Under the pieces are notes generated by a model. It did no database searches. It was not told the DNA's origin and saw only the letters and a program-made list of their open reading frames with translations. Position numbers and translations under genes: made by a program. A stretch of DNA of 64,000 bases from Azolla caroliniana (Eukaryota; Plantae; Polypodiophyta), in the NCBI GenBank assembly GCA_043228905.1, contig JBHGNT010000007.1, forward strand, positions 17,794,001 through 17,858,000, written 5' to 3'. Numbering within the stretch: position 1 is the first letter of the stretch; each line of letters opens with the position of its first letter. Shown one piece after another: positions 9,973-57,771 of this stretch.

Positions 9973-11803
9973 ATGGAAGGAAATGAACAGGAATTTCCCT
10001 CTCTTTCTCTTACATATTGATATAATATGTATACGTAAGTTATTTTGAAAATACGAAGCTAATTAATTAAGGCTTAATCAATCGTCTCTTCCAAAAACGC
10101 AATTATGTATGTATGCATGCATACATGTATGTTTATGTACATATGTATGTGTGTGTGTGTGTGTGTGTGTATGTATATGTTTATGTACATATGTGTGTGT
10201 GTGTGTATGTCAAAAAAACAAACAATGGGGTCACCTTTGAATTTGTGGCCTTCTTAGAGAGAGAGAGAGAGAGAGAGAGTATGTACGTAATGTCTGTCTG
10301 TCTGTCTAAATCGTGGAGAGGGACGGTGTAGGTCGCACCGCTAATGGCGCATTCGATCTCAACGGTCCAAGATGAATAAAAAGCTGACAGCGTTTGTCAC
10401 CAGGAGCCCGACTTTGTGAAAAGGAGCTCGACTCTCTGACATCCTCTATGAAAAGGAGCCCGACTCTGTCAAAAGGAGCCCCGTTGTTAGACAACCTCTC
10501 TACGCAGGAGCCCCACTGTCTGACAACATCAGTAAGAAGGAGCCCGACTCTGTCAAAAGGAGCCCCGTTGTTTGACAACCGCTGTCATCAGGAGCCTGAT
10601 CGACTCAGGGAAGGAGCCTGACTTAAAAACAAACATCAAAAACTCCAAAAAATGGTAAGTGTACAACAAATATTTGCCATGAAAATGATCATAAAATTTC
10701 TCAAAAAATCAAATAACAAGTCTTACATAAAATATTAAAACGTCAAATGTTGACAACCCTAAAATGAAATATGAATATACACGTTACATATTAAGATTAT
10801 GGCTCATGTCGGGATGATTGCAAGATGCAACCACAATTTTTACATGTAACATTCGAGTCCCTTGAAGTCAAGGTCAAGTCATCACAACGCAAACACCAAA
10901 CCTTCTCATGGTCACCTATTGGCAATCGCCTCCTAGCCCGACTTGCACCTCTTTGTAGTTTTCCGGAGTGGGATTTGGAAGTGTTTGGGGAACTGCCAAT
11001 AAGTTCTTGCAAGATGTCTATTGTTGCACTTCTTTTGGCACCGATTTGTTGGTTGCGACTTGTTGATCTGCCATCTTCTTCATTGGTTGATTTTGGTGCA
11101 CCAATGCGATACACCTTCTCAGCCACATCTTCCAATGTTTGTATACCTTCGACAATAGTTGCACGGTCGAAGGTTCCTAACCCTTGCTCGAGACATTGAA
11201 GTGCTTTCACGACCGTTTGTATTTTGGACTTGAATGATTCAAGCTCGGATGTTGTGGGGTTTGTCTCCTCGACTCGTTCTACCTCTGCCTCCACTTCTAT
11301 TTATGTATTATGGTCCATTCGCATTTGGGTCGCGTGATCTATAAAAGGCAACGAGCCACTATGCCTCTCAATAATCATTCGGATACTGAGTAAATGCTTA
11401 CATTTACTCACAATGTCCTGGCAATCACAATATGAACATTGGAGTGAGACATTATACCATAGAGCGGGAGTCGTCATGCTCATGATTCTAAACCAATATC
11501 GAGCCTCGTCGACAATTTCCATTGTGGAAGTATCGTCGACATACCTTTCCAATATTCTCTCCGCTTCTTTAAGTCGAGACCTTTGATCCCTACAATTTGC
11601 ACGGGGTGCAAACCGACCACTCTCACATATTTCTTGTCATTGCTTGTACCAATCTATTACCGTTCCTCCTATGCAAGTGCCAGTTTCATTGTCCCCGATT
11701 AAGACATGCAGAAGGTCGGTAATTGATCGGTTTATTCTTCCTTTCAAGGCAGTATACTTGATAAACGGCCAATGTCTTTCCACAATATTGGTAGTGTCAA
11801 CGT

Positions 11804-14800
11804 TGTCGTGAAGATTTTCGTCCATAGGCGGAAACTAGGGTGGAATAGGCAAATCGGTGGTGTGCACCATGTGCACATGTATACTAGGAAATGGTGTATA
11901 GAAATAAGAGGGGGAATTTTATCCCACATTGTAAGGTCCCTCCCTCCTTGGGCTATAAAAGGAAGGGAGGGGTCACTTATGAAGGGGTTGCCTATTTTGA
12001 GGAAGAGAGGCATACCACTTAGGTCGAAGGTTTCCTATTTGGTTTTAGGGTTTCGGTTAGGGTTTTCTTCTTGGGTTTTCCTTTAGGGTTTTCTGATAGT
12101 CGTTTGGTGCGGCCATGGCGGCCACCATTGTAAAGCGTTTATGTTTCCGTAAGCTAACTTGTTGAGCATCTTGCCCCGTCTATTCTATGTTATTGTCTTA
12201 TTCTTTCTCACCTCCTCTTGAGCTAAGCTTCCATTTTGTGTCTTATTCTTTCTCCTCTACTCCCTAGTCCAAGACCCCCGTGGTCCTGCCCCTTCTACAC
12301 ACATGCGCGTAACAACGCGACATCTTTGGTGAACCCGACGTGAAGGGCGGCAAGGGAGCATGGAGATGGAAGAAGACTTCGACTTCAAGGAGATGATGGC
12401 AAAGATCGTGATGGAAGCCGGACGGAAGATGGTGAAGCGAGATGCGGCTCAACAAGTCGTCGAAAGGGTGGTCGATTGAGTCGGCTGGTTCAATGGGAAT
12501 GAGGTCCTAAAAATTTTGGGAGCCTACAAGGCCGATATGGCGAAAGGGGGCGTAGACGAGGCAATGCGGCTAGAGTATTTTCCTCGAGTGGCGGTCGTAT
12601 CGATGACCAAGGAGGTCAAGGAGCTACGAGAAGCTCATGAGTCGTGGGTGTCCTTTGAGGGAGCCCTATTGGAGGCGTACGGGTACACCGAACCGGAAGG
12701 AAGAGGTCGACATGAGTTCGATCGGTGGGTGTGCCGGCAACATGATGCGAGGCGGTTGGCCACAACACGGCCCGCGAGCGACGGAGAAGAGAGAACGGCG
12801 AGTGAGTACGCACTACCGCCGGAAGAGAGCTCAACGCAAAACGGTTTGGAGGAGCTCGACCTAGAGGTGCTAATACGGGAGGCATGCGAGCTTGTGAAGG
12901 CGAAAATCGGAACCGAAGAAGGGCTTATTATGGAGTCGGGCCGGAGGCGATCGAAGGATGCGGAGGAAGAAGCCTCCCTAAGCGTAGAAGACAGGGCCTA
13001 TACGGAAGTCGGAAGAGCGTACGACGGCGACATAGGAGAGGGTGCGGAGCAAGCGACCCTCTTGCCTTGCGGTGAAGGGACGGCCATGGAGGCTGGTAAC
13101 TACAGATTCGGGACATGGCGGCCAGAAACATCGAGTGGGGAGGAGACAAGCGGCGGTGCCACGACCTTACACACATCGGTCCTAGAGGCTCCGGCGGTTG
13201 GCCCGAGTGCTGGCGTGAGACCTAGAGCGACGGGCGGTGGCGGCGGCAAGGCGGGAAACCGAGACGTTGACATGGAAGAGACGGCGACAAGCGTAATCGA
13301 GGCTTGCGCGATCAGAGGTGGGGTGGCCGCAGACAACTATGTCCGGACGGAGGCGGCTACGGACACAACAAGCGGTGGTGCCGGGTCCTTACCCACACTG
13401 GTCATAGAGGCTCCGGCGGTCGGCCCGAGTGTCAGCGTGTCCTAGAGCGACGGGTGGTGGCGACGGCAAGGCGGGCGACTGAGACGAGGACAAGGACGAG
13501 GAGGTAGCAAGCATAACCGAGGCTTGCGTAACCGGGGACGAGATAGCCACGGACCACGGCGTCCGAACGAAGGTGGCTACAAACATGACATCGTCGAGTG
13601 ATGGTACCGAGACTTTTCCCGCACCTATTCTAGAGACTTCGACGGTCGGCCCCGAGAGCCCACGTGAGACCGGAGAGACGGAAGGTGGCGACGGCAAAGC
13701 GGACGATCGAAACGACGACGACGAAGGTCATAGCGGACGGAGGAGAGACTCCTCGACACCAGGGCCGGAGACTAACGGCGGTTGCATTCGAATGCCAACA
13801 TAAGACCGGAGAGAAGGGCAGTGGTTGTGAGGAGGCGTGGCTCGGAGCGAACACGTACGAAGATGAGGATGCGAGGCCCGGAACAGGCATGTACAAGAGG
13901 ACCGACAGAGAGGCCGAGAGCGGAAAAGAGGAGAGAGTCGGGAACCGACCCGACCGAAAGATGAACCGGTCGATAATCCGACACGATCGGAAGACGACGT
14001 GGAAGAAGATTGGAGCGGGGTCCGGTCAACCGGGCCCGAACCGAAGAAGAGCCGGCAAGGCCGGATTTGTTTGGACAAACATGTACCGGCCGGTTACGAT
14101 TACGGAAGGGAGCCGACCAAACCGGAACTCGATCGGCCGAGACCGATCCGGGCGAAGGCTAAGTTGGCATGATTGGAGGTCGAGGTGAATGGGCCACAAC
14201 ACCCGGTGGGAGCCGGTGAGCGCGAGAAGGAAGCTAACCGGGCACGGTGATTACGGCTTGGCGGAAGACCGAGAGCAAGAGGAACCCTCCACACCTATTC
14301 TTGAGACTTCGGCGGTTGCGGATCAACATAAGACCGAAGAGACAGCGGGTGGCGGCGAGGAGTCAGAGACCGGAACGGACGAGGCTACTGGAACGGGTAC
14401 CCGGTGCGTGAAGACGGACGAGCACAGCCCAGACGGCAAGCCGGAGTCGGAAGGGGCTACGGCAACAAAAGACGAAGAGATCGACGCAGAGGTCGGGTCT
14501 ACAGCGGATGAGGCGCGTAATACGAAGTATGCACTACGACGTAAAACGGAGCATGCAGTACGGCCGGCAAAGGGCCAAGAAGTAAGCATGCACCCGGAAG
14601 AGCGGCAATGAGTGACCGACAACGACGGACCGGTCGAGCCTTTGAGAGGCAAGCATGCGGCGAGAGACGAAGCCGTAAGGTGCCGGGATTGGCGGATGGG
14701 TGGCGAGAGCGAAGGATGGTGCGCGGAGAACAACGGGGTACACACTGGGAAGAGAAAACGCGGCGGCTTCCCAGAGGGCATGCAAGGCCAAGCGGGCCAA

Positions 14801-16536
14801 GAGAGCGCAAGTCGAGGCGAGGCGGTAACGAGAGCCTCGAGGGACACTGACACGGAAGTCAGGATGACGGTACGCTCTACGGCGAGAGAGTACGACGGGC
14901 AAAGGAGAGGCAAGGAACGCGGAATGGGGTCGCCTAAGGGCCAAAGAATGAGCGCATATTCAGGGGACAACATTGGTGCACGAGAAGAGCCTATGGAAGG
15001 CAAGCGCGGAGTAGGAAGAGTCGACACGCCGAGGTGTTCGGCATGTAGAGACGATAAAACCAAAGGAGGAACATACGTGCCATGAAAAGGGCGGAATCCA
15101 GAGTGCGATCGGAGAGATCGGGAGCACACCCGGAGGACATACGAGCCTTTGCGAGGAATGCACGCAGCGAGAGATAGAGCGGTGAGGTGCCGGTATCGGC
15201 GAATGATCGGCGAGCATGGAAGGCTATGTCTTGAGAACTGGAGGAGGTTTGTGGAGAGCAACGGGCTACGCGCTGGGAAGAGGAAGCGCAACGTCCCGGA
15301 AGGCATGCGAGGCCAAGCGGGCCAAGAGGACGAGAGTCGGGATGAAGCGGTAACGGGAGTCGCGAAGGACACAAGCATGGTGGTCAGGATGACGGTATGC
15401 TCTACGACGAGAGAGCATGGCGAGCAAAGGAGAAGCGAGGAGCGCGTAATGAGGTTGCCGAGGGACCGAAGAACGAGCGCATGTTCAGGAGACAACAAGG
15501 GCACACGGAAAGAGCCTACGGAAGGTGAGTGCGGAATGGAGGGAATCGGCACGAGGTGTTCGAGACGAAGAGAGGATCGAGCCGGAGATAGAACACAAGC
15601 GGTACGCGAGGGGTGGAATCCGACGAGCAAACGGGGTGACCGAGGGCCTAATCGGAGGACCTACGTGGCGGACAAAGAAAGAGTGACCGGATCGGCAATG
15701 GCGTTCGGGAGGACCGACCGGGGAGGAAGGCGCGTGCGGTGGATATGGCGGTTCGGATGGAGTCTATGTTTCGGGGACACACGGTGGACGTGGTGGATCG
15801 GTTGGAGCCGTCGACTCGAGGACGTGCGATGGATACGGTGGAACAGGATGCTACGACGGTTCATGTGGAAGGGACGGGCATGCTCGAAATGGAAAACGAA
15901 CCCGAGCAAGGCCAACGAGGACACGACGGACCTCTGTTTTATCACCATGGCCGAAAAATCTCACCTCTTCTCCTTTCTTGGCACATACCGGTGGATGTGC
16001 GGTTTCGTGGGGGCGGATGTCGTGAAGATTTTCGTCCATAGGCGGAAACTAGGGTGGAATAGGCAAATCGGTGGTGTGCACCATGTGCACATGTATACTA
16101 GGAAATGGTGTATAGAAATAAGAGGGGGAATTTTATCCCACATTGTAAGGTCCCTCCCTCCTTGGGCTATAAAAGGAAGGGAGGGGTCACTTATGAAGGG
16201 GTTGCCTATTTTGAGGAAGAGAGGCATACCACTTAGGTCGAAGGTTTCCTATTTGGTTTTAGGGTTTCGGTTAGGGTTTTCTTCTTGGGTTTTCCTTTAG
16301 GGTTTTCTGATAGTCGTTTGGTGCGGCCATGGCGGCCACCATTGTAAAGCGTTTATGTTTCCGTAAGCTAACTTGTTGAGCATCTTGCCCCGTCTATTCT
16401 ATGTTATTGTCTTATTCTTTCTCACCTCCTCTTGAGCTAAGCTTCCATTTTGTGTCTTATTCTTTCTCCTCTACTCCCTAGTCCAAGACCCCCGTGGTCC
16501 TGCCCCTTCCACACGCACGTGCGTAACAACGCGACA
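11804..16536 (+). mobile_element. Non-autonomous Ty3/gypsy LTR element (Ylt1-like group); LTRs 11804-12322 and 16018-16536; gag remnant only, no pol
   Basis: 519-bp near-identical LTRs (TGTCGTGAAG..GCGACA). PBS TGGTGAACCCGACGTGAA at 12327-12344; PPT-like GTGGGGGCGGA before the 3' LTR. A gag-like stretch at ~12470-12730 (LEYFPRVAVVSMTKEVKELREAHESWVSFEGALLEAYG) is homologous to the gag at 40027-42153. The rest is GC-rich tandem repeats. Confidence 0.9.
12327..12344 (+). promoter_or_regulatory. Primer-binding site complementary to the 3' 18 nt of cytosolic tRNA-Trp
   Basis: Reverse complement TTCACGTCGGGTTCACCA matches the plant tRNA-Trp(CCA) 3' end as recalled; the identical PBS is at 42176-42193 (-). 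Confidence 0.8.
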
Positions 16537-19332
16537 TCTTTGGTGAACCCTAGTTGAACATTCTACCAAACTTGGGCTAGAGTTTCCTCCACACACATGT
16601 TAAACCACACCATCCTCCTTCTATATATTGCCAAACACTGGGTTTGTCTGCATGTTCTACCTTTAACTCCTCACATATCACATTGAATGCGGATTCAATA
16701 ATGCATTGCATCAATTGGCATATTCGTTGATAAATATGGCTTCTCTGAGTTGCACTTACTTTTGGCAACAAGTTGTCTACCCATGACTTTTTGGCGTGAA
16801 ACTGACACAACAAAAGTTGACAATGTCTTTGCAATCATTGCCCATTTACAACAATCCAAGATTGACGGTCTGTTGCAACCACATTAGTTATGGCATTATA
16901 TGATGTCCAACATTTATCAATCACTATTGCATTTGGCCTCACCGTGGGCATCCTTGCGAATATGACTCTCAAACAAGTTTCTAATGCAACTTGCTCATGT
17001 TTTGACCCCTTATTAGAACTACAAAGCATGTACCATAATGGGATCCCAATTTCCATGGCGTTAGGGGTAACTGTTGCATATAATGGTTGCCCGAATTGGT
17101 TTGTTTTAAATGTCGAGTCAATTGCCCAAGAGTTGTTTAGGGTCAACCACTCACACATTTCCAACATCCGTTGATCTTAAAGTATCAAGATAAATGGTTG
17201 TTTGGCGGGAGATCCTTGTTCACCAGCCAGGAAGGGTTGAACATGAGCCACTTTCCCAAGATCTCAAAGTGCACAGGCATCTTGCATCATCAAAGCCCAA
17301 TCAACTTTAGTCATGGCACTCCCGAATTTAAACCTATTTGCCATGTTATGGGCCTCCTTTGGTATCATAAAGAATTGATAGCTAACAAGCTCTAATGAAC
17401 TAGCCTTGGACTTATGATATGCTTCCTTACGCATGCTCATTCGTGCCACATGCCTTGCACACCCAACATCAAATAGGTCATCTTCGCAACAACTTATGAC
17501 ATTGGGGTGTACTGGCAAATGGTACACATCCAACCCACTACATGGTACATGACCATTATGAGGTCCATATATTGAAATGGTAAGTGTCTCATTGTCAACA
17601 CCGTCATTCATTCTAACGTCCACATGGAATGTGCACCAACATCGGGGTGTGCACCTGCGTCGTCGAGTGGAATTAGATGCAAGTCGAGATGTCCCAGCAC
17701 GATGGCAACTATACCTAGTCACGCGCATACCCTTCTTGACTCCTTTCCTTAAACGTGTGTGGTACTTGGTTTGCAAATCTGTGAATGCATCATCTAATTG
17801 GTGGGTTTCTACCTTGATCACTTCTATGGGTAGGGTCTTGTTATATTTGTCCATGCTTGATCCCAAACCTTCTATCGGTCTGACCTTCAATACCATTTGG
17901 AAACCACAACTTGTAATGAGTGCTTTTACGCACTCCGATGGGATGCCATAATCACGTACATCAGTCGCATAAACTAGCTTAAACTCTTTAAGAGTCTTTG
18001 AAAACGTGTGGTGGGATGTGTCACCATATGACGCTCATACTACTTCCCTCCATTTCTTGATGTATAATACTTGAAGATTAGGTGATACTTTAAGGTAAAT
18101 TGCACTCTCATTCCCGAGTATGAGACGACTCTTCATGCGCTTCCATGCATGAAGTGAAAGAGGTGCTCCCCTCGCGACATCACGTAATGCTTCCAATGTT
18201 ACCTTAACTTGTCCCAATAAATCTTTAACCATCAAATTATGCATACCTCTTGAAAATGCAAAATACCTAGGGGAACAATACATGAAGGGATCGACCGCCT
18301 CATCCTCGTGATCGGAATTTGATGACTGAAAAGGAATCTCCAATTCATCCTTAGATACAAATGATGCATTGGACGACCATGACGTTGTCGCGGAAATCCA
18401 CGCGTGCTTGTCGGATAGGATGGGACCACAGGGGTCTTGGACTAGGGATTAAGAGGAGGGAGAGAAGCTTGGGAGTTCAATCGAGAAGGAAGAGAAAGGT
18501 TAAGATTCAAGAGATTAAGATTCAAGAGAATAAGATCTAAACAAGACAAGATACATTATGGAAAGCACCACACCAATTACAGCCGTGGCCGTGTAGGTCG
18601 AATGTAAACCCTCTAGATGAAACCCTAAGCGGATAGGGGAAAAGAAGAAGAAGAAGAAGATGATGAAGATGAAGAAGAAGAAGATGAAGATGAAGACGAA
18701 GAAGAAGAAGATGAAGATGAAGAGGAAGAAGATGAAGATGAAGAAGAAGAAGAAGAAGAAGAAGAAGAAGAATGAAACCCCTAAAACAAGATCCTAAAAC
18801 CCAAAATTCTGAAACCCTAATGGCAACCCAAAGAAACCCCAAAAGTGGAAGCCCCTCCTCACTCAAAATAGGTAACCCCTTCACAAGAGACCCCTCACTC
18901 CCTTTTATATAGTAGTAAGGGGTGAGGCACATTACAAAAGGAGAGGTTAAATCCCCTTCTTTCAATGGGGAATATTTTTCCTTGATCTTAAATCAGTGGG
19001 CCTTTAACTCTCTCCCCTCTCACATTCACACTCAATGCCCACTGTCATAACTAGACTCGAACCCATAACCTTTTGTTACACGGGTCGAGACTTTACCATT
19101 AGGTTATAAATTGTAATTTGAAGGATATTATTTTCATTTAGGTTTTATTGGGAAATTGATGTATATTCCAGATTTCTCTGGAACATTCTAGAAACTTCAG
19201 GAGTATTCCTGAAGACACTATAAAAGGAGGCGCAAGGCATTAGTTCGAACCAAATCGGTTCAACGCCAGTCTTAAGCCTTCTAACTACTGTTGTATATCT
19301 TCCTTCATATAATACATATACCTTTCGCATCA

Positions 19333-19390
<58 letters not shown>

Positions 19391-19626
19391 ACCCATTCCT
19401 TCTCTCAAAGTTCGACACCTCTCATAGTACTAATCCTTCTCTGTCTTAGTACTATTCCCCGACAATAGTACTAATCCTTCTTTTAGTACTAATTCCTTCT
19501 CTGCCTTAATAGAGTTCCTGACAGTTTGAACCGATTTTCCTCGGTGCCTGTCTGGTCTTTTCTCTCCCTCTTCCTTCTGTCTCCCTCCTTTCCTATTAGT
19601 CTCTTATTTTCCTTTTCCTTCATCCC

Positions 19627-20796
19627 ATGGCCACCGTTAGCGCTGAAGAGTATCAATCCGTTTTCTCGGAATTTCAATGCTTGAAAGAGAAGTTTCATGC
19701 TTTGGAACAAGAAAATCAACGCTTGTTGGGGGATCTTCAGCAAATTTCCTTAGAAAAGCAGCAAACGCAACAACAGCATGGGGAACTTGCGTTACGCGTG
19801 CAACAACTCGAAGCAACCATCGTAGCAATGCAACAACAAGGGCACGGAGCACAAGGGATTCATAAAGAACCCAAGATTGGCCTTCCCACGAAGTTTGATG
19901 GAACGCGATCGCAGTTTAGAGGGTTTCTTAACCAGGTACGGTTAGTTATTCAAATGCATCCGTCCCGATATCCCACCGATGCATCACGAGTGGGTTTAGT
20001 AGGCACGTTGTTAAATGGCTCAGCATTAGCATGGTTCGCTCCGCTACTAGAAAAGGAATCTCCAGTACTAAATAATTTTGAAGAATTCATAAATGAGTTT
20101 AAAGCATGTTTTGGAGATACTGACAGCATAAGGACTGCAATCAACAAAATCCGGCGATTACGCCAAGGTGACCGTCCAGCCTCCGCATATGCTGCAGATT
20201 TCCGCCTACTCGCCGCCGATATCCCCTGGGATGATCAAGCATTGATGGAGCAGTTCCGCTATGGTCTACGCAACGATGTCAAGGATTTACTCTTGACTTT
20301 CCCTGAAGAGCCAAAATCATTAACAGAAGCAATCAGTCGAGCGGTCAGATGTGACAACCGCCTCTTCGAGCGACGTTCGGAACGACAATTTCAGATGCCG
20401 AGGGCAAGATCCGAGCCTACCTATGCCTCAGTGGTAGCAAAACCTTTTCAAAGGGAGTCACATAATGCGCCTCCAGTAAGTACTCCAACTCCAATGGAAA
20501 TTGACACTACACGTCGTCGTGGGCCGCTATCGGAGGAGGAAAAGCAATGACGCCGAACAAACCGATTATGCCTTTATTGCGGTGGACCAGGGCATATCGC
20601 GATAAACTGTCCCCATAGACCAAGAAGGCAGGTAAACCAAGTCGTTGTTAGTTCTGACTATACTAAACCCGAGTCTATTTCAGTAGGAATCTCTGATAGT
20701 CCTCATAGTCATAATAGTCCTAATAGTACTAATAGTCCGAATCTCGCAAACAAATTTGATGTCCTTAGCCAATTAGAAGAAGAGTTAAACGACTAA
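19627..20796 (+). CDS. gag: Chromovirus Gag (coiled coil, capsid, CCHC knuckle) with one internal TGA at 20548-20550
   Basis: EPKIGLPTKFDGTRSQFRGF capsid motif and PTPMEID; after the TGA the frame continues RRTNRLCLYCGGPGHIAINCP to TAA at 20794-20796. Confidence 0.88.
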
Positions 20797-23700
20797 GTCC
20801 AGCCAAAATAGGAGCCGTTTGGTTGGACAGCCCTAGATCTGTGCAGCCCATTAGTGGTTCCATTCCCTCTAAGCAAGTTAGTGATGTGTTCGTAGCCCAA
20901 GTAGCAGTTAGTACTAAAAGTACCCCTCCAGTACATACCTTAGCCCTTCTAGATTCCGGAGCTAATTCTTGCTTCATGGATAGGAATTTTGCCCGAGCTC
21001 ATCAGATATCTCTCAGAAAGCTCCCATGTCCAGCCTCAGTAGTAGTCATTGATGGTCGTCCCATTGCTTCTGGTAATATCATAGAAGAGTCGGAACCCGT
21101 TAATATTGTCCTAGATAACTTAACATGTGTAGTATCATTTAATATTATTAGTATTCCAGAACATCCCATAGTTTTAGGATTACCATGGTTCGAGTTACAT
21201 AACCCAGACATAGATTGGAGGACAAGGGAAATCCGGTTGCGACAAACCCAAGGATCTACCCAGAAGGTTGCAACCATTTCGCTACGTCAGTTGCGTGAGG
21301 AAGGGCGCAAGGAGGAAATGTTTCTCTTCGCAATATCAGTACAACCCTCCAGTACCACCAAAGAGGAGTCCACCGTTCAACTTCCCGAGAAGTATCGTCA
21401 GTATGCTGATGTGTTCGATAAAGTACAAGCCAACACACTTCCTCATCATCGGCCGTACGATTGCGCCATCGACTTACAACCGGGAAAAGAGCCGCCATGG
21501 GGGCCGATCTACAATTTGTCACCAACCGAGCTAGAAGTCCTTCGAGCCTATATAGAGGAGAATTTGGAGAACGGTTTCATTCGGCATTCGAAATCTCCAG
21601 CCGGCGCACCCATTTTCTTCGTCAAGAAAAAAGATGGCTCGCTTCGACTCGTTGTAGATTACCGTGGCTTGAATAAGGTCACAGTAAGAAATAGGTATGC
21701 TCTTCCCCTTATCTCAAGTCTTTTAGAACGGATCAACGGTGCCAGGTTCTTCACGAAGATCGACTTACGAGGAGCCTATAACCTCGTACGGATCCGACCA
21801 GGAGATGAATGGAAGACCGCGTTTCGCACCAGATATGGGCACTTCGAGTATACGGTCATGCCGTTCGGACTCACTAATGCGCCGGCAGTCTTCCAGCACA
21901 TGGCGAATGATATATTTCGAGATCTCTTGGATGATTTTTTGATCATCTACTTGGATGATCTACTGGTTTATTCAAAGACCCAAGAAGAACATGATTCTCA
22001 TGTACTATTAGTACTAAAACGACTTCGAGAACATGGTCTGTATGCAAAGTTAGAGAAATGTAGTTTCGGGTGCAACCAAGTGGAGTTTCTCGGCTATGTC
22101 ATCTCCTCAGAAGGCATATCTATGGACCCAGCCAAGGTCAAAACGGTGATAGAATGGCACACTCCGCGTTCGGTGCGGGATGTGCAATGCTTCCTAGGCT
22201 TTGCAAATTTTTACCGGAAGTTCATACAAAATTACTCAAAAATTGTGCTGCCTCTCACACAGCTCACCAGGAAGGGACAATCATTCCTTTGGTCTAAAGA
22301 GACGGACATGGCTTTCGAGAGTCTTAAGAAGGCGTTTACATCAGCTCCAATTTTAGGTCATGTGGATCCGGAAAAACCATTCATTATCGAAGCTGACGCA
22401 TCGGATTTCGCATTGGGGAGCATTCTGTCACAACAGGGTAACGACGAGAAGCTACATCCTGTGGCTTTCCACTCCCGTAAGTTTGACGCCGCCGAAATCA
22501 ACTACGAAATTCATGATAAAGAGCTATTAGCAATAGTTGATTCTTTTATGCAATGGAGGCATTTCCTGGAGGGATCTCCTCATCAGGTCACTGTATTCAG
22601 TGACCACAAGAACCTTGCCTACTTTCAAGATGCTCGTGTACTGAATCGACGTCAAGCTCGGTGGGCCCACTTCCTCACACGCTTCGACTTCAAAATTACA
22701 TATCGTCCGGGGAAGCACCAAGGGAAGGCAGATGCATTATCACGGCGTTCGTATCTAACACCACGTCCCGGTGAGCCAGCTTTCGATAACCAGAAGCAAG
22801 TAATCTTGGGTCTAGCACGACTGCAAGCAGCACAGGTCTTTGACATGCCCGTGGATTCCGACATTACCAATACTATACGTGAGGACTTGAAGACTGACGC
22901 TTTCGCCCAAGCTATACTAGCACAAATTGACCCCTCTCGAGCGTCATGTTCACAATCACAATCACCAGGTACGGATTATCGGCAATTCAAATACTGTGAT
23001 GGATTACTCTTCTTTAAAGAACTTTTGTATGTTCCTAATGGTTCTTGCCGCCTTCGAGTAGTACAAAACTGCCATGACACATATACAGCAGGACATTTTG
23101 GTAGTACTAAAACATTAGATTTAGTACAACGATCATTCTGGTGGCCCCGTATGCGACAATTTGTCGAAGATTTTGTTCGGACTTGCGATACATGCTGCAG
23201 AGCGAAAATGCCAAGACATCATCCATATGGTTTATTAGAACCATTACCAATTCCAAGCAAGCCATGGCAATCCATTGCTCTTGACTTCATTACAGATCTT
23301 CCAGTCTCTAAGGGATTCAGTGCGATTCTCACAGTGGTGGATCGATATACAAAGATGGCTCATTTCTTACCATGTACTAAAGAAATATCTAGTGAAGACA
23401 CCGCCGCAATTGTCATGCGGGAAGTATGTCGGCATCATGGACTCCCTGATAATATCATCAGCGATCGTGGACCTCAGTTTGTGTCAAAATTCTGGAAGCA
23501 CCTTTTTAAAATGCTGAAGGTCACTTGTCACCTCTCCTCCGGCTACCACCCACAAACCGACGGTCAAGCTGAACGAACAAATCAAACACTGGAGCAGTAT
23601 CTGCGGTGCTTTCTCAACTATCATCAGAATGACTGGGCAGATATTCTTCAGTTCGCCGAATTTGCCTATAATAACGCTATCCACGCATCGACTAAAGTCA

Positions 23701-24380: not shown

Positions 24381-24662
24381 CTAGACTCGAACCCATAACC
24401 TTTTGTTACACGGGTCGAGACTTTACCATTAGGTTATAAATTGTAATTTGAAGGATATTATTTTCATTTAGGTTTTATTGGGAAATTGATGTATATTCCA
24501 GATTTCTCTGGAACATTCTAGAAACTTCAGGAGTATTCCTGAAGACACTATAAAAGGAGGCGCAAGGCATTAGTTCGAACCAAATCGGTTCAACGCCAGT
24601 CTTAAGCCTTCTAACTACTGTTGTATATCTTCCTTCATATAATACATATACCTTTCGCATCA

Positions 24663-24720
<58 letters not shown>

Positions 24721-25885: not shown

Positions 25886-25977
25886 TGATTTGATATTACA
25901 AAAAAGTTGGGAATTTGCATGAGTAGTACATCGAGATCATATGTTTGATGTTACAAAGTACAACATGCTAGTGATTA

Positions 25978-34966: not shown

Positions 34967-34972
<6 letters not shown>

Positions 34973-35360: not shown

Positions 35361-35408
<48 letters not shown>

Positions 35409-35453
35409 TTCCTTCCTTCTCCTTGAGAATCTTGCCAAACGTTATCCTCACCA

Positions 35454-35710: not shown

Positions 35711-36538
35711 GTTTGCATGGGGATATATAGTCTACTTTTTGTTCTTCTTTCTTAATAAAATCGTTGTCGGGGTTGCTACGCCCCTGCGTGCAGAAAGGAG
35801 GAGGGACCACGGGGGTCTTGGACCGAAGAGCAAGAGAGAGAGAGGAGAAGGAGAGGGAGACCCGATTACACAGAACCGAAGTTTGCACAGGGACACGGCC
35901 CAACAAACAGAGATCACAAATAAACGCCGACGCAGATGGACGCAACCACGAAAGATATGTACTTATGAATGCAAGAAAATAACAGGCTAAAGTGTTACAA
36001 CCCACGGCGGGGCACGAAATAGATACTAACGAAAACGAACAGGGCGGCGAACAGATGCCGACCCCTGTATGTCGCGACGCACGGAAAGGGGAAAACAGGT
36101 CGGAGGTGCTGCAGGACGCACTCGGGGCGTTCCACGGAACAGCGCAAGCCTCCTCGAAACCTGCACAGGTACGCGATGGAGCAGAAGACAGAGAAAGCAG
36201 GAGTGAGAGAGGAGCTTCGAAATCGGTTCGGCAGCACTTCGTCCTCTCCGCGCGAGATCCCCCATCTCTATTCTTCCTCTTCCTTTTATATCCCGTCAAG
36301 AGGCCGTTTGGCATTAACTGCATACCAACCGAATCTACCCACCTAGGATCCTCGTATGTACCTACTTCGTCCTTAGGTACTTCTTGGCGCGCGTGTGCGT
36401 GTAGAGCCGTTTCCCCCCCACGCCTTGTTCCTCCGATTCCCCTTGTGGGCGGTTTTCTTCACGACATCCGCCCCCACCTAACCGCGCATCCACCGGCATG
36501 CGCCAAATTAAGTTGGCACGGAGAAAACCGGCCCGCCT

Positions 36539-39500
36539 TTACTCTTCGCCTGCCGGCCCTTCCTCGGCCTCGGATCGGTCGTCGCTGCTGTCCAGGAGAA
36601 TCGGGTCGGGTTCGTCGTCGTGCCGCTTCTTGAAAGCTTTGATCCTCTTCCCGGCCACGGGTATCGCTATTCTCGTACCGTCGAGTTCCGCCAGATGATA
36701 CGTCCCGTTGTCGTTGGCGCTCTGTACCGTGTACGGCCCGAACCATCTCCGTGCGAACTTCCGCGTCGCTCGGTGCTGGTTGTCGAGGCTGCTGTCGTAG
36801 ACGAGCACCCAGTCACCTTGTTCGATCTTCTTCGGTCGGAGTCGGTGCGTTCGGTCGAACCTGGCCTTGTTCTTTATCCTCGCCACTCGGAGCCTTTCTG
36901 CAGCCGTCTCCACGTCCTCCGGTCTCCGTTCGAGTTGTCGTATACGCGCTGCCAACAAGTCCTCCCGGCTCATCTCGTCCCTCCAGTCGACCGTTGCCCA
37001 TGAGGAGATTGTTCGTTCCATCGGCATGATCGGCTTCTGGCCGAACATGAGCTCTGTCGGCATGTACCCGGTTACCGAACTGTGCGTAGTCCGGTCGGCC
37101 CACAAAGCATAAGGTAGAAGTCGCGGCCAGTTACCGATTTGGCCCCCGCATGCCCGAACCAGCGCTTTAACGATCGGTCCGTGTCCGCGCTCCACCTTTC
37201 CATTCGCCTCCGGGTTGTACGCAGTGGTGAGCGAGAGTTTGACTCCCAGCCGATCAAACAGCTCCGCGGCTTCCTCGGTGTCCAACTCCCCTCGGTCAGC
37301 CACGATCTTCCCGACGCACCCGTACCGGCATATCACGTCTTCGATCAGGAACCGACACACGGCCGCGGTCGTCTTATTCTGAAGGGCTCGGCCTTCCACC
37401 TGGTTCATCAGGTCTTCCCGCGCTAGGACCAGATACCGCATCTGTCCTACCCCCATCGGCATCGTCACTAGATCTACCATCCATTTGAAGTGGATAGTCG
37501 GAGGGTACGTAGGGCGAAGCCCGTCCCGGTGTCGGACTATCGAGTGCATCTGACAACTCTCGCAAGTTGACATGAACCGATGCACGTCCCGGTACAATCC
37601 CGGCCACCAGTACTTCCCCTTCAGCTTCTCAAATGTCGCCCACGTTCCACGGTGTCCAGCCCAAGGGCTGTCGTGGTAGGCCGCCAGTAGCTCCTCCTGT
37701 TCTTCCTTCATCGCCACCACCCGGAGCGGGACGCCGTTCCTCTTCTTCGGGTGCTTCCACAAATGCCCATCTCGGAGAAAGAATCGATATGCTTTCTTCC
37801 GGATCCGGTTGGCCTCGTCCTTCGTCCACGACGCATCGGGCGTCATTGTCTTCAAAAACCCGCCGATCTGCAGCCACTCCCCGTCGTACTTGCTCGCGTC
37901 GAACTCGTTAAGCGCCGGAGTGCTCATCCCGTCGGTCGTCATGTATGCCGCCTCGAAGAAATCCACGCCGACTTCTTCGTCTTCCGAAACCATGCCGCCC
38001 TCGTCGTCGAACCTCGCTCTTGAAAGCATGTCGGCCATGGCGTTGTCTTTCCCGGAAATGTGTCGTATTTCCGGGTCCAGGGACTTGATGTACGCTATCC
38101 ACCTGAGCATCGCCAGGTCCGGAGTCGCGCATCCGGAAACCATACCGAGAATCGGCAGGCAATCCGTCTCGATGATCACTTCTGTCCCTATCAGGTAGTC
38201 TTTGTCGGCCTTAACCGCCGAAACAATACCCCAGAGTTCGCGTTTAACCTGGGCGTATCCTCGCTGCCGTTCACTGAGGACTTTCGCGCCGAATCGGATC
38301 GGAAACCGATTGCCGTCCTCGTCTTCCTGGTTCACGACCCATCCGATCCCGGTCGGACTGGTATCCACCGTTATGAATACCGGGGTACCCTTCCCGTATA
38401 CCGCCTTCCGAAGTGCCGGTGCCGCTGCAAGAGCCTCTTTCAGCTTCCGGACCGATTCCGCGTGCTCGTCTAGCCATTCGAACCTTCGCCCCTTTTTCAG
38501 CAACCCGTACAGAGGCTCCGCGACGTGTGCGTAATGCGGGATCCATATGTGGTAGAACGCGCATGCCCCCAGGAATCTCCGTACTTCCGTGACCGAGCTG
38601 CAGTCGGGCTTCATCGCGGAGATGGCTTCTATCTTTGCCGGAGACGGTTTCCGGCCATATGGTCCGCACAGGTGTCCGACCACCATGATTTCTGACTGCC
38701 CGAAGGCCGACTTCTCCCCGGAGAAGGTGAGTCTCGCATCCTCTAGCCTTTGCAGCACCTTCTCGCAGTCGTCGATGTGCGTCGCCACGAATCGCCGGCA
38801 TCCGTCCGGCCCGATCGTCTCGTCCCTTTCTTCCACCGGGCATCCCTTGATCGGGATGTCGTCCAGAAACGGCATGGTGATGTCCGGGATACAGTCCCTT
38901 AGAACCTTGTTCATCGCATTCACCATGTGGGCCACCGAGTTGGTCCCTCCTTGCGGCAGTGTACACATCCGAACTAGGCCGAGGGGAGTTCGCATCGTCG
39001 TAATGTCTTTGCTCTCCACGGCTAGCTGGAACTGGTCGTACCCTGAGTATAGATCCCCGACCGAGTAAATTGACCTCCCGGCGAAGGCCTCCGCGAACTC
39101 GTCTATGGTCGGTCCGATCCCTGCGTTCCGAATGGTCACTCGATTGACCGGCTGCAGGTCCTGGATGAAGCGCAACGAACCGTTTTTCTTCGGTACGGTA
39201 AACCATCGATTCGAATATGGGGCGCTCGACGGCTCGAGAATTCCCATATCAACTTTCTGCCTCAGCAGCTCCATCAACTTCGGGATGTGAGCTCTCGGAA
39301 CCGGGATTGGCTTGAGATTCCATGGTACATGCGGTACCGTGAATATCACCATCGGCTCCACGATCGTCGGGTCAACGCACCCGATTTCCTCCGGCGAGAA
39401 TGCGAAGGCTTTCCCGTGCCTTCCGAGCATTCTCCGAAACCGGTCTTCCTCCGCCGGCAGTAGGAACCCGCCCCCACCGATTTTGAGCTCTCGGAGCGTC

Positions 39501-40036
39501 TCGTCGGCGAAGGTGTGTCCTATGCAGGCCGGATCTCGTAGACTAGGGTCCGATGCAACCCCTTTGATTCTCGACGCGCTGTCCTCCGGTAAGGGTGCCG
39601 CGACCGGCCTTACCTTCCGGTCCACAGTCTTGTACTTGGTGCTTACGTGGGCCATCCGAACTGACTCGAGCCCTCGACCGAAGTCCGCGATGACTCCGTA
39701 CATCTTCTCGGAACACACCGGTATCGTCCGGTCTTCGTTAAGGCCTTCTTCAACTACCTTTCCCAGCATTCCCAAGGTGTCGTCGAATGAGACCACCTCC
39801 ACGGCTCCGTTGATTTCCTCGTCAGGGCCGAGAACTCCGCACGCTCGAAGTCTCCCCTCCGCCTTTGTCTTCTCTCGGCCGCCGATGCCGACTATCGTAC
39901 ACGCTCCGCTGTCGGAGAACAAAAATTCCCTACCTATGGTACAAGGTTTCTTCGGTTTTATCGTACAGGTGTGGGGTTTTCCCGGGGTGTCCGGACTGTC
40001 GCGGCCCCACGCCTTGGCAGCCCTCTCTAAAAATCC
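36539..40036 (-). CDS. pol: RT-RNaseH-integrase (ORF2) of the Ylt1-like element, in the -1 frame relative to ORF1
   Basis: Open from GGATTTT (40036) to TAA (36539): YKTVDRKVRPV, DLYSGYDQ, LPQGGTNS, FLDDIPIKG, VDTSPTGIG, HHCC, DDE and GPY; no chromodomain. Confidence 0.93.
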   Translation of the reverse strand, partial: GFLERAAKAWGRDSPDTPGKPHTCTIKPKKPCTIGREFLFSDSGACTIVGIGGREKTKAEGRLRACGVLGPDEEINGAVEVVSFDDTLGMLGKVVEEGLNEDRTIPVCSEKMYGVIADFGRGLESVRMAHVSTKYKTVDRKVRPVAAPLPEDSASRIKGVASDPSLRDPACIGHTFADETLRELKIGGGGFLLPAEEDRFRRMLGRHGKAFAFSPEEIGCVDPTIVEPMVIFTVPHVPWNLKPIPVPRAHIPKLMELLRQKVDMGILEPSSAPYSNRWFTVPKKNGSLRFIQDLQPVNRVTIRNAGIGPTIDEFAEAFAGRSIYSVGDLYSGYDQFQLAVESKDITTMRTPLGLVRMCTLPQGGTNSVAHMVNAMNKVLRDCIPDITMPFLDDIPIKGCPVEERDETIGPDGCRRFVATHIDDCEKVLQRLEDARLTFSGEKSAFGQSEIMVVGHLCGPYGRKPSPAKIEAISAMKPDCSSVTEVRRFLGACAFYHIWIPHYAHVAEPLYGLLKKGRRFEWLDEHAESVRKLKEALAAAPALRKAVYGKGTPVFITVDTSPTGIGWVVNQEDEDGNRFPIRFGAKVLSERQRGYAQVKRELWGIVSAVKADKDYLIGTEVIIETDCLPILGMVSGCATPDLAMLRWIAYIKSLDPEIRHISGKDNAMADMLSRARFDDEGGMVSEDEEVGVDFFEAAYMTTDGMSTPALNEFDASKYDGEWLQIGGFLKTMTPDASWTKDEANRIRKKAYRFFLRDGHLWKHPKKRNGVPLRVVAMKEEQEELLAAYHDSPWAGHRGTWATFEKLKGKYWWPGLYRDVHRFMSTCESCQMHSIVRHRDGLRPTYPPTIHFKWMVDLVTMPMGVGQMRYLVLAREDLMNQVEGRALQNKTTAAVCRFLIEDVICRYGCVGKIVADRGELDTEEAAELFDRLGVKLSLTTAYNPEANGKVERGHGPIVKALVRACGGQIGNWPRLLPYALWADRTTHSSVTGYMPTELMFGQKPIMPMERTISSWATVDWRDEMSREDLLAARIRQLERRPEDVETAAERLRVARIKNKARFDRTHRLRPKKIEQGDWVLVYDSSLDNQHRATRKFARRWFGPYTVQSANDNGTYHLAELDGTRIAIPVAGKRIKAFKKRHDDEPDPILLDSSDDRSEAEEGPAGEE

Positions 40037-42153
40037 TCTCGGTTGTCGGAACCGAGGGAGTCGCGGTTACGCTCGTGGTTCGGCCTAACCGTCAAAAACT
40101 GGACCGAATGGCGCCCGTCCTGGCTCTTGACCCGCGCATAGGCCGAACCGTTGTCCAGCACCTTGGTCTCCATTCGCGCCGCCGTGATGTACGGCTCTCC
40201 CAGTATGACCGGATGCGAAGACGTCTCCTGCACGAAGAAGTGCTGGTCAATCTCGACGTCGCCGATCTTGACTCGCACATTCGGACAGGCCCCGTGCAGT
40301 TCCTCGGTGGCGCGCGTTGCTGCCCTTATTTTCCACCCGTGCTTGGTGTTGATCGGCCATTTGCCCTTCTTATAGAAGTCCATGGACATCAAATTGATCT
40401 CCGATCCGTGGTCCACCAAAGCTATCACCGGTTCCTGGACATCGCCGATCTTCACCGGGGTTTCCGTGGTCGCTCGGGCCCAGTGTGGTCTCGAATAGTG
40501 GCTTTCCGCCCACTCGTCTCCCAGCGCCATGTCGTCTAGGTGCGTCGCCCGCACTTCCACCGGTCTTTCCGGTTCTGTCTCCGTCGACAGCCTCTTCCGT
40601 TTCACCAAGTCCACGATGGAGTCGTGGAACTCCTTCTTGGCGATTCCCAGCACCTCTCGTAACGACAGCTCCACCTTGCTGTCGAGGATCCGTTCCTCCA
40701 GGACCTTTCGTAAGTCCGTGGTCCTTTCTATCTCCGTCCCCAGACGGTACCCGCCCTTCTGGGGTTTATCTTGCGTACCGGCCCCGCCGGCTTCGTCCCG
40801 TCGTGGCCCGGACCGGGTCTCATATCGTTGTGAGGGCCCGGTCGTCCCGGGTCTCCCCACCCGCTTCTCTTCTACCAGAGCCTCGTAGTTCTGGCAAGCA
40901 GCTTCCACGAAGCCCGTCCTTCCCTCGACCGGGTCGCTCCACCCGGTCATCTCCCGTACCCGTTTCTCCGCACGGTCCGATTCCTCCCTCTTCATCCTCG
41001 TATCGGCAAGGCCTTCCAGCACCGTTGGCCAGAATCCGGCTTTGCTTTCCCTCCGGGCCTCGCCGCCCCCGACTCGAATGCCGGCCGACGCCGAGTAGTG
41101 GACGGTTTCCGCGTGTCGGGCCGCCGCCTCTTCCATCACCCTTTTCATACCGCCTTTTCCGTCGTTTCGGCTCAGGGCCCTTCGGGTGTCGCTGGCATGC
41201 ACCCGTCCTTCCCACAGGTACACCACCCTGTTCCTCAGCGCCTCCGCGAAGTCGCCGCAGTCCTTCCGAATGTGGCCGACTTCATCGCACCACATGCACC
41301 TGTTTCCTGCCGCCGGCCGTCGGTCACGAGCCGGTTCGCCTCCTTCCCTTCGGGCCTGCGCGATTTGGAGGTCCTTTATCGCCTTCGTCAATTCCTCCAG
41401 CGCCGCTCCTCCGGTTGAGCCTCTGACTACGCCGGTCGAAACCGAGCCGGTTTCCAACCATTCCCGGGTCTCTTCCCTGCGCACCTGTGGCGCTGGTTCG
41501 AGCTTCCATGCTGCGACCGAGCCCGACCCGGTCGCCCCGTTATCCGCCCATTCTCGCCGTTTGTCGAAACGGCCACAGACCTTCTTGACAGCCGCCCAGT
41601 CGGTAGTGAGCCCGTCTTCGGTTTCCAGCAAGAGGCCCACGTGCTCCCGATCCCGCTCGTCGACCGACCTGACAAACAGCAAGACCCGGCTCGTGTCCAG
41701 GATGGTTCGGTCGAGCGCCGAAAGGCGCGCAAAGTTTCCCTCGAACTCCCGGAGGAGCGCCGACGCGTTTCTTCCCTTCCCCGGGGACTCCACCCATTCC
41801 ATGAACCTTCGCTTCGAAAGCCGGAGCGCGTCGTCCAGCCCGTATTTCTCCAGGAGCCGACCTTCGAACTCCTCCCAGGTACGGCTCTCCGTCCGCACCT
41901 CGAGCACCTCCGCATGGATGCTCGGCATCGCTACTCGGGGAAATCCGGCAAGACGCCTTTCTTCCGGAATGTCCCGCATCAGCATCTCTGCACCGTAGGA
42001 CGCCAAATACTTCGTGGCATCCTTCCCATCGAACCGGCCAATCGTGCCGACGACCGCCTCAATAGCTCTGTCGAGGGCACCGGTGCTCTCGCGCGCGTTT
42101 ACAATCCGATCCACGGCCGAAGCCATGGCCTCTGCGAGATCCGACCCCCTCAT
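40027..42153 (-). CDS. gag: Gag-protease polyprotein (ORF1) of the Ylt1-like element
   Basis: First ATG after the PBS at 42153; RFDGKDATKYL, zinc knuckle CMWCDEVGHIRKDC, protease ALVDHGSEINLMS..VILGEPY; ends GAT TTT TAG. Confidence 0.88.
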   Translation of the reverse strand: MRGSDLAEAMASAVDRIVNARESTGALDRAIEAVVGTIGRFDGKDATKYLASYGAEMLMRDIPEERRLAGFPRVAMPSIHAEVLEVRTESRTWEEFEGRLLEKYGLDDALRLSKRRFMEWVESPGKGRNASALLREFEGNFARLSALDRTILDTSRVLLFVRSVDERDREHVGLLLETEDGLTTDWAAVKKVCGRFDKRREWADNGATGSGSVAAWKLEPAPQVRREETREWLETGSVSTGVVRGSTGGAALEELTKAIKDLQIAQARREGGEPARDRRPAAGNRCMWCDEVGHIRKDCGDFAEALRNRVVYLWEGRVHASDTRRALSRNDGKGGMKRVMEEAAARHAETVHYSASAGIRVGGGEARRESKAGFWPTVLEGLADTRMKREESDRAEKRVREMTGWSDPVEGRTGFVEAACQNYEALVEEKRVGRPGTTGPSQRYETRSGPRRDEAGGAGTQDKPQKGGYRLGTEIERTTDLRKVLEERILDSKVELSLREVLGIAKKEFHDSIVDLVKRKRLSTETEPERPVEVRATHLDDMALGDEWAESHYSRPHWARATTETPVKIGDVQEPVIALVDHGSEINLMSMDFYKKGKWPINTKHGWKIRAATRATEELHGACPNVRVKIGDVEIDQHFFVQETSSHPVILGEPYITAARMETKVLDNGSAYARVKSQDGRHSVQFLTVRPNHERNRDSLGSDNREDF

Positions 42154-43620
42154 TTCCTGCTCTTCTGCCGCCTCCTTCACGTCGGGTTCACCAAAGATGT
42201 CGGGGTTGCTACGCCCCTGCGTGCAGAAAGGAGGAGGGACCACGGGGGTCTTGGACCGAAGAGCAAGAGAGAGAGAGGAGAAGGAGAGGGAGACCCGATT
42301 ACACAGAACCGAAGTTTGCACAGGGACACGGCCCAACAAACAGAGATCACAAATAAACGCCGACGCAGATGGACGCAACCACGAAAGATATGTACTTATG
42401 AATGCAAGAAAATAACAGGCTAAAGTGTTACAACCCACGGCGGGGCACGAAATAGATACTAACGAAAACGAACAGGGCGGCGAACAGATGCCGACCCCTG
42501 TATGTCGCGACGCACGGAAAGGGGAAAACAGGTCGGAGGTGCTGCAGGACGCACTCGGGGCGTTCCACGGAACAGCGCAAGCCTCCTCGAAACCTGCACA
42601 GGTACGCGATGGAGCAGAAGACAGAGAAAGCAGGAGTGAGAGAGGAGCTTCGAAATCGGTTCGGCAGCACTTCGTCCTCTCCGCGCGAGATCCCCCATCT
42701 CTATTCTTCCTCTTCCTTTTATATCCCGTCAAGAGGCCGTTTGGCATTAACTGCATACCAACCGAATCTACCCACCTAGGATCCTCGTATGTACCTACTT
42801 CGTCCTTAGGTACTTCTTGGCGCGCGTGTGCGTGTAGAGCCGTTTCCCCCCCACGCCTTGTTCCTCCGATTCCCCTTGTGGGCGGTTTTCTTCACGACAT
42901 CGTGTCTTCTTCTTTTTTTCCAGGAAAATATCCTTTCATTAGTTATGAACAATTATTACAATAAAGTTGAGCTACCATCAAGCTACCACTGATATGTTGC
43001 ATTCTTCCTTAGGTCCCATCCCTCAAGGATAAATAGTATGAACACTCCACCAGTCCTTAACCAAGTTATGTGATTGGTGTTGGGAACAACCATACTGGTG
43101 GTGCTAAGCACCATTTGGGTCTTGAATTTTGTAATGTGAGAAAAGGGGCATTCTTCCAATAGGCAATAAATTCAAGGCATTGCAACACTACAACATCTAT
43201 CTCACCTTTAATATCCTCATGCCGCCCTTTCAAGGTATGCACAATCTCTATCTAGACATTCCGTACATTTTCCACTGGTTGAACAGTAGTATTACCAAAC
43301 ACCTTAGAACACCTAACAATCCAAATAAACCACATTGTGGTGGTGCATAGTAGCTCCCATACTTCTTGCATTGCCTTTAACATGTAAGGAGATTCAATAT
43401 GACTTCGTTGCACCACCAATATCATTCCTCTTTGAATTCTAATAATCGTGTCATTTGGACATGCCTCATATAGCCACATCATTTGTGTCACTGTAGCCCA
43501 GACTACCATACCCCACAAAAACTGCAATCCCTAGACATAAAGGCTAGAACTCGAAACACTCGTCTCCAAACTTGTTGTGCAACATGACATTCCCACAAGC
43601 AATGTTTCAATGTCTGCATC

Positions 43621-57716: not shown

Positions 57717-57771
<55 letters not shown>

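What the first reader, a model, noticed from the sequence alone, without database searches (positions are those of the whole stretch)
11800..42903. Fungal Ylt1-like Ty3 group with 4-bp TSDs: three of three insertions at CpG-centred WCGT sites
Seen: three distinct but related LTRs (519, ~890 and 702 bp) sit at ACGT (11800-11803, left flank only), ACGT (TSD 18382/25096) and TCGT (TSD 35761/42900) in a CpG-poor genome; two of them hit the same MULE transposase gene. The two copies with internal regions share a tRNA-Trp PBS. RT motifs YKTVDRKVRPV and FLDDIPIKG..CRRFV resemble fungal Ylt1-type elements. Established: plant LTR elements usually make 5-bp TSDs, whereas Yarrowia Ylt1 makes 4-bp TSDs. 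Inference: the integrase prefers CpG, possibly reading methylation state, which would give chromodomain-free targeting to other TEs. The sample is only three sites.
Basis: partly seen in the sequence, partly recalled or inferred. Interest (0 to 1): 0.75.

Follow-up and report, generated by a model that had tools for sequence, protein, structure and literature searches.

The report
Plant retrotransposons that insert at CpG
A large family of plant jumping genes inserts almost only at the DNA letters CG, likely because its integrase reads that pair directly; the same preference is already published for a moss lineage (Phygy), and whether methylation matters is untested.

Summary
Genome-wide, 3068 of 3583 5' LTR junctions have NCGN (background 2.8%), TG 200, TA 18. 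Duplications are 4 bp: 35 of 38 resolved ends match within one base, none at 5 bp. The exceptions are mostly CpG decay. The motif is VCGB, not WCGT. The PBS matches host tRNA-Trp. RT-RH groups with Yarrowia Ylt1, other fungi, Chara, Riccia and Adiantum, away from aRH-bearing Tat-like elements. It is not a new phenomenon: REXdb reports 4-bp NCGN TSDs and a tRNA-Trp PBS for the moss clade Phygy. These elements are Phygy-like; no labelled Phygy sequence was available for a tree. There is no chromodomain or MBD. CpG is scarce in old DNA and dense in young transposons, so sequence reading alone would steer insertions into other TEs; methylation reading is unsupported but not excluded. New here: range beyond moss, near-absolute specificity, and the Ylt1 link. 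An earlier scan note on this genome also named Phygy.

The parts
11800..11803 (.). E1 target site ACGT (left copy only)
   Evidence: empty MULE paralogs carry one ACGT here (9 of 11 intact, 2 decayed)
11804..12322 (+). E1 5' LTR, 519 bp
12327..12344 (+). E1 tRNA-Trp PBS after a 4-nt spacer
12345..16017 (+). E1 non-autonomous interior: gag remnant near 12444-12731, no pol, PPT before the 3' LTR
   Evidence: blastx to E3 gag 38.5%, E 1.5e-14, no pol hit; no Pfam hit in the 321-aa frame
16018..16536 (+). E1 3' LTR; 4 differences from the 5' LTR, all within the last 30 bp
16537..16550 (+). 14-nt PBS remnant in place of a right TSD; 9 host bases missing
10309..25500 (-). Host MULE copy in three pieces (about 10309-11803, 16551-18385, 25096-25500); transposase domain at 16838-17176
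18382..18385 (.). E2 TSD ACGT, left
18386..25095 (-). E2 solo LTR, 894 bp in two pieces (18386-19042, 24859-25095)
19043..24853 (+). Nested Tcn1-like chromovirus, identical 481-bp LTRs, 5-bp TSD CCCAC; internal control, not part of the group
   Evidence: (PF00385); the label Tcn1-like is my inference
25096..25099 (.). E2 TSD ACGT, right
35761..35764 (.). E3 TSD TCGT, left
35765..36466 (-). E3 3' LTR, 702 bp; PPT adjoins at about 36467-36490
36539..40066 (-). E3 pol: RT, RNase H, HHCC zinc finger, DDE integrase, SH3-like tail; no aRH, chromodomain or MBD
40027..42153 (-). E3 gag-protease ORF (708 aa, DUF4100), overlapping pol in another frame
   Evidence: the protease label is my reading of the sequence
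42176..42193 (-). E3 tRNA-Trp PBS
42198..42899 (-). E3 5' LTR, identical to the 3' LTR
42900..42903 (.). E3 TSD TCGT, right

Best explanation
These are chromodomain-less, tRNA-Trp-site Ty3/gypsy retrotransposons, likely of the moss Phygy lineage and kin to fungal Ylt1, that duplicate 4 bp centred on CpG, likely because the integrase itself reads the CG bases in the bent target. Shown: TSD length, CG centre, V..B ends, PBS match, tree placement with Ylt1. Inferred: direct base read-out by integrase. Also inferred: because methylated CpG decays in old plant DNA and stays dense in young transposons, a sequence preference alone steers most insertions into other retroelements, with no chromodomain or methyl reader.
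For: NCGN in 3068 of 3583 junctions versus 2.8% background. TA is only 18 of 3583 although TA is 7.0% of the background, so generic YR bendability does not explain it. 37 of 38 resolved elements have CG on at least one side; 3 of 4 resolved TG-left and 5 of 6 resolved TA-left cases have CG on the right, i.e. decay after insertion. The CG is host sequence (empty MULE paralogs). Chromovirus control 2 of 100. Flank CpG density (median 30 per 500 bp) is close to that of random VCGB sites (26) and far above random positions (9). The family is 4.7% of background bases but holds 14% of VCGB sites. The integrase has no Chromo or MBD hit and folds like PFV and Ty3 integrases. Precedents: a central YR step and integrase base contacts in 4-bp retroviral targets (PMC4422553, abstract); ZAM integrase binds CGCGCg directly in Drosophila (PMC2527525, abstract), an animal that has lost DNA methylation (PMC6673714, opening text). 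Phygy: 4 bp, NCGN, tRNA-Trp 81% (PMC6317226 supplement).
Against: No biochemical test of the integrase. Flanks are somewhat more CpG-rich than the sequence-only null (53% versus 42% with 30 or more CpG per 500 bp; own family 24 of 86 versus 14%), though the null rests on only 20 background stretches and selection against genic insertions would give the same shift. No labelled Phygy sequence was placed in the tree. E3 (7135 bp) is shorter than the Phygy range 7656-9968 bp. No Athila reference was in the tree. Only 38 of 86 junctions had both ends resolved, and one of the 38 is a mis-pairing across a nested copy.
Confidence: 0.65

Rival explanations
1. The integrase prefers methylated CpG, so it reads the epigenome and aims at silenced transposons without a separate reader domain.
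For: Both window targets in the MULE lie in a family whose CpG positions differ 30% versus 5.4% at other positions, and the target CpG itself is decayed in 2 of 11 and 3 of 10 paralogs. 54 of 86 flanks are recognisable retroelement DNA. Mild excess over the CpG-density null. A retrotransposon that targets methyl-CpG exists (CopiaMBD, PMC6673714), but through a captured MBD.
Against: No MBD or chromodomain. Most CpGs in a TE-rich plant genome are expected to be methylated (established knowledge), so methylated targets are expected either way. ZAM shows CG read-out without methylation. No methylome was available.
Confidence: 0.2
2. A host factor or nucleosome feature tethers the intasome to CpG-dense chromatin, with the integrase supplying only the local CG choice.
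For: Excess of insertions in own-family and CpG-dense DNA over the null.
Against: Tethering cannot by itself fix CG at one exact register; the excess is small and the null noisy.
Confidence: 0.1
3. The pattern is only generic flexible-YR selection by a 4-bp-stagger integrase, or the CG belongs to the element's own ends.
For: Central YR enrichment is general for 4-bp TSD retroviruses; V..B ends are general for plant TSDs (PMC6911290 passages).
Against: TA 18 of 3583 and only 1 of 38 TG/TG pairs, although TA, TG and CA are each 7% of the background. 3' LTRs are preceded by the PPT, not NCGN. Empty sites carry the CG.
Confidence: 0.03

Closest known systems
Phygy clade of non-chromovirus Ty3/gypsy (REXdb; Neumann et al. 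2019, PMC6317226: passages, section 9, supplementary files 5 and 6 read)
   Same: 4-bp TSD with NCGN, tRNA-Trp PBS, no chromodomain, no aRH, no extra ORF, coding sequence fills the interior.
   Different: Described as specific to Physcomitrella patens; here in another land plant, probably a fern (inference). E3 is 7135 bp against 7656-9968 bp. The paper does not mention Ylt1 or methylation for this clade in the passages read. Tree membership was not testable.
Ylt1 of Yarrowia lipolytica and the fungal Ylt1-like clade (Novikova et al. 2010, PMC2864245, passages)
   Same: One 100*-supported RT-RH clade of 48 rows; 35% RT-RH identity; shared integrase C-terminal K..PRW.GP-type stretch; no chromodomain. 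The Ylt1-like Tca3 has a 4-bp TSD (PMC4139406 table).
   Different: Ylt1 is one 2621-aa ORF (its identification as Ylt1 rests on the Yarrowia label plus my recall of length and accession); E3 has gag and pol in different frames. The fungal target motif is unknown to me (searches gave none).
ZAM of Drosophila (PMC2527525, abstract)
   Same: Ty3/gypsy-type element whose integrase binds a CG-rich target (CGCGCg) directly.
   Different: Different lineage, longer CG repeat consensus, host without DNA methylation.
CopiaMBD of arthropods (PMC6673714, abstract and opening text)
   Same: Retrotransposon that accumulates in CpG-dense regions.
   Different: Copia with a captured MBD and regional targeting; the elements here have no MBD and place CG at one exact register.
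TatI and Selgy (PMC6317226 supplement)
   Same: 4-bp TSD; TatI also uses tRNA-Trp.
   Different: TatI has aRH, which E3 lacks; Selgy uses tRNA-Ala; neither is listed with NCGN.

Membership tests
Phygy (REXdb) | Groups with P. patens Phygy elements in RT/RH/INT trees | not testable with these tools
   The REXdb FASTA and element table are too large to read here; no Physcomitrium-labelled protein among the rows listed or among the 30 looked up
Phygy (REXdb) | 4-bp TSD | tested here: met
   13 of 14 pairs exact; 35 of 38 within one mismatch, 0 at 5 or 6 bp
Phygy (REXdb) | NCGN target motif | tested here: met
   3068 of 3583
Phygy (REXdb) | tRNA-Trp PBS | tested here: met
   38 of 86 junctions had the PBS core within 1.5 kb
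Phygy (REXdb) | No chromodomain, no aRH, no extra ORF | tested here: met
   Pfam scan, ORF map, integrase model
Phygy (REXdb) | Typical size 7656-9968 bp (descriptive; the paper calls size insignificant for classification) | tested here: inconclusive
   E3 is 7135 bp; paired copies 3.7-8.5 kb including non-autonomous ones
Ylt1-like lineage | RT-based clade with Yarrowia Ylt1, apart from chromoviruses and animal Ty3 clades | tested here: met
   IQ-TREE quick, SH-aLRT 100, branch 1.31, 48 of 64 rows; FastTree on 173 rows gives the same grouping
Ylt1-like lineage | Same target motif in fungal members | tested here: inconclusive
   80 metagenome loci gave no element with both outer ends; primary papers not held
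Tat (OTA superclade) | aRH domain and RT grouping with Tat | tested here: not met
   No RVT_3 hit in E3 pol; four aRH-bearing elements of the same genome fall outside, at 23-26% identity
Athila | RT grouping with Athila; 5-bp TSD; tRNA-Asp/Asn PBS | tested here: not met
   TSD and PBS differ from the table; no Athila reference sequence was in the tree
Methyl-CpG-reading retrotransposons (CopiaMBD type) | Encoded MBD or shown preference for 5mCpG | tested here: inconclusive
   No MBD; methyl preference of the integrase itself not testable without a methylome or an assay

The most novel reading that the evidence does not exclude
An old Ylt1/Phygy lineage shared by fungi, charophytes, liverworts, mosses and ferns has an integrase that recognises methylated CpG with its own DNA-binding surface, giving epigenome-guided insertion into silenced transposons with no reader domain.
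Probability: 0.2. Interest if true: 0.75.

Novelty: new member of a known kind. Interest (0 to 1): 0.4.

Why it matters
The NCGN preference was a one-line remark on 186 moss elements. Here it is near absolute across about 3,600 junctions in another plant lineage, so it can be studied quantitatively. It offers a simple route to self-limiting insertion: CpG marks young transposons in a methylated genome. Linking this plant lineage to fungal Ylt1 poses a testable question about deep origin or cross-kingdom transfer. If the integrase proved methyl-sensitive it would be a reader-free epigenetic targeting mechanism, and a CpG-specific integrase could be of use as a tool.

Tried and rejected
Fungal target sites: a metagenome scan with a 26-row alignment of the unnamed, fungus-like subclade gave 80 loci, but only 4 had long-range terminal repeats and all were cut at contig ends, so no TSD could be read. 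Viral contigs gave no relative. The Ylt1 primary paper and Neuveglise 2002 are not held; PMC5014426 (passages, supplement search) and PMC13728883 (passages) give no Ylt1 target sequence. Labelled Phygy proteins: none in three homolog searches and three cluster look-ups. Empty allele of E3 in other samples: four contig sets laid, no joint skipping the element among those shown (137 joints not shown), which is uninformative. No methylome was sought: the one run search had no library filter and no library was on record. Atlas search gave generic RT/RNase H clusters only. Rfam tRNA search did not identify the primer; a pattern search did. One region (L035) was fetched on the wrong side of its junction and served only because it held a solo LTR. 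Rejected: WCGT as the consensus; generic YR flexibility; CG as part of the element end; Tat membership. Literature searches. Only PMC6317226 held both Phygy and NCGN, and none of the 20 papers listed held both Phygy and Ylt1; subscription papers and Repbase/GyDB entries are not covered.
Full report
Window and elements. The window is G000:C7:17794001-17858000 in a 523-Mb land-plant assembly; a fern is likely from the nearest named relatives, but this is inference. E1 (11804-16536, +) is non-autonomous, with two 519-bp LTRs and a gag remnant. E2 (18386-25095, -) is an 894-bp solo LTR interrupted by a chromovirus with a 5-bp TSD. E3 (35765-42899, -) has identical 702-bp LTRs and open gag and pol frames. 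E1 and E2 sit in one MULE copy (PF10551). Eleven paralogous MULE copies show the empty sites: one ACGT at each (9 of 11 and 7 of 10 intact, the rest ACAT or ATGT). E2 is a clean 4-bp duplication. E1's right end is a 14-nt piece of PBS with 9 host bases lost, and its four LTR differences cluster in the last 30 bp, which suggests a collapsed tandem copy (inference).

Genome-wide test. A pattern common to the three LTR starts, excluding PPT-preceded 3' LTRs by requiring non-G at position -7 (this also drops host sites with G there), found 3583 junctions; the reversed control found 0. CG sits at -3/-2 in 3068 (85.6%), TG in 200 and TA in 18; CA was not counted genome-wide (7 of 86 in the sample). 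Background from 20 evenly spaced 10-kb stretches of C1 is 2.8% NCGN and 7% each for CA, TG and TA. Of the NCGN sites 2861 (93%) are VCGB against 45.7% expected, so WCGT is not the consensus; G is also rare at -5 and C at +5. The nested chromovirus family has 237 junctions, and 2 of the 100 listed show CG in that register (counted by eye).

TSD length and exceptions. Among the 30 loci fetched of 42 matches to the E3 LTR, 14 pairs could be formed: 13 exact 4-bp NCGN duplications and one ATGT/ACGT; two unpaired ends were also NCGN. Of 86 junctions on C1, 38 had both ends resolved: 22 exact and 35 within one mismatch at 4 bp, none at 5 or 6 bp; 37 carry CG on at least one side and one is TG on both (an earlier pass resolved 34 with 21 exact and 31 within one mismatch). 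One of the 38 is a mis-pairing across a nested copy. For 20 TG-left and 17 of the 18 TA-left junctions, 4 and 6 were resolved, with CG on the right in 3 and 5. The original specificity is therefore close to absolute, and generic pyrimidine-purine flexibility does not explain it.

Lineage. Pol has RT, RNase H, zinc finger and integrase core, with no aRH, chromodomain or MBD. The PBS is complementary to host tRNA-Trp(CCA) genes. Named close homologs are from Riccia (up to about 69% in RT-RH) and Adiantum; most hits are unnamed. A search of 1.84 billion representatives also returned a 33-41% tier including a 2621-aa Yarrowia polyprotein, Phenoliferia, Smittium and Chara. In a 64-row IQ-TREE of RT-RH, E3 lies in a 22-row plant-containing clade (SH-aLRT 100) inside a 48-row clade with Ylt1 (100, branch 1.31); four aRH-bearing Tat-like elements of the same genome, animal Ty3 elements and the window chromovirus lie outside. 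The order of branches inside the clade is largely open, so neither a donor nor horizontal transfer is shown. No Athila or labelled Phygy row was available.

What is known. Neumann et al. 2019 (PMC6317226; passages, section 9, two supplementary files) state that Phygy elements have an insertion preference for NCGN, and list 186 elements, 4-bp TSD 100% (NCGN), tRNA-Trp 81%, no extra domain. Jedlicka et al. 2019 (PMC6911290, passages) note GC-rich centres of 4-bp TSDs, V..B ends of 5-bp TSDs and Phygy nesting into Tcn1. All diagnostic traits I could test match, so I call these elements Phygy-like, probably the same lineage, without filing them formally. The two supplementary files too large to read (element table, FASTA) bear directly on membership and may already show a Phygy-fungal link. 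My searches found no paper joining Phygy to Ylt1 or to methylation.

Mechanism. The modelled integrase (pLDDT 86.8) matches PFV and Ty3 integrases best. For 4-bp-TSD retroviruses a central YR step and integrase base contacts such as PFV Ala188 set the local preference (PMC4422553, abstract). The residue aligned to Ala188 is Glu183, present in 42 of 42 close rows but not in Ylt1 (Ser); K359, F360 and R363 in the C-terminal loop are conserved in the close rows, and K359 and R363 in most distant ones. These are candidates only. ZAM integrase binds CGCGCg directly in a host without DNA methylation, so CG read-out need not involve methylation. Insertion flanks have a median of 30 CpG per 500 bp, against 26 for random VCGB sites and 9 for random positions. 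24 of 86 flanks are own-family DNA, 3 chromovirus, and 27 of the other 59 have a retroelement protein hit; the family is 4.7% of background bases but 14% of VCGB sites. Sequence reading plus CpG decay in old DNA thus gives most of the TE targeting. The residual excess (53% versus 42% CpG-dense; 28% versus 14% own family) could be selection, noise from 20 background stretches, or a real methyl or chromatin effect. Targets do lie in methylation-prone DNA (MULE CpG positions differ 30% versus 5.4%), but that is expected under either model.

Verdict. A real and strong feature; a new member of a known kind. The motif and PBS are published for Phygy. The additions are the range, the scale, the refined VCGB motif with decay explaining the exceptions, and the Ylt1 kinship. 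Methylation reading remains an open 20% possibility. Interest 0.4.

Noticed in passing
window 40027-40066 (-): The E3 gag stop is directly preceded by a GGATTTT heptamer where pol overlaps in the -1 frame, a likely ribosomal frameshift site (motif class recalled, sequence); Ylt1 is a single ORF.
   Followed up: no
window 16510-16550: The E1 3' LTR differs from the 5' LTR only near its end and is followed by a PBS remnant, as if a tandem second copy had been deleted.
   Followed up: partly
window 26931-27380: Solo LTR of the same chromovirus family with a 5-bp ATTAC duplication, 2 kb from the full copy.
   Followed up: partly
window 12323-12326 and 42194-42197; C1 copies: A 3-4 nt spacer (TCTT, TATT, TCT) separates LTR and PBS in 35 of 38 PBS-bearing copies, longer than the usual 0-2 nt (recalled).
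   Followed up: no
G000 C8:17796786-17823370 and C16:4989496-5105657: Large clusters of matches to the tRNA-Trp 3' end, spaced about 1.2 kb apart on C8; only four copies elsewhere were checked by ARAGORN.
   Followed up: no
L143-L154: A young aRH-bearing Ty3 family with many open frames of 1734-1768 aa.
   Followed up: partly
window 2380-4480: PPR gene with an E-motif hit.
   Followed up: no
window 29993-31477 (-): LINE-type reverse transcriptase frame.
   Followed up: no
window 44479-45233, 57396-57874, 62806-63260: Four related 350-460 bp repeats, the last two flanking fragmented ORFs, probably an older LTR element; the same repeat occurs beside MULE copies L133 and L136.
   Followed up: no
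P0160, P0136 (Chara braunii): Chara carries members of the Ylt1-like clade on a branch apart from the land-plant group.
   Followed up: partly
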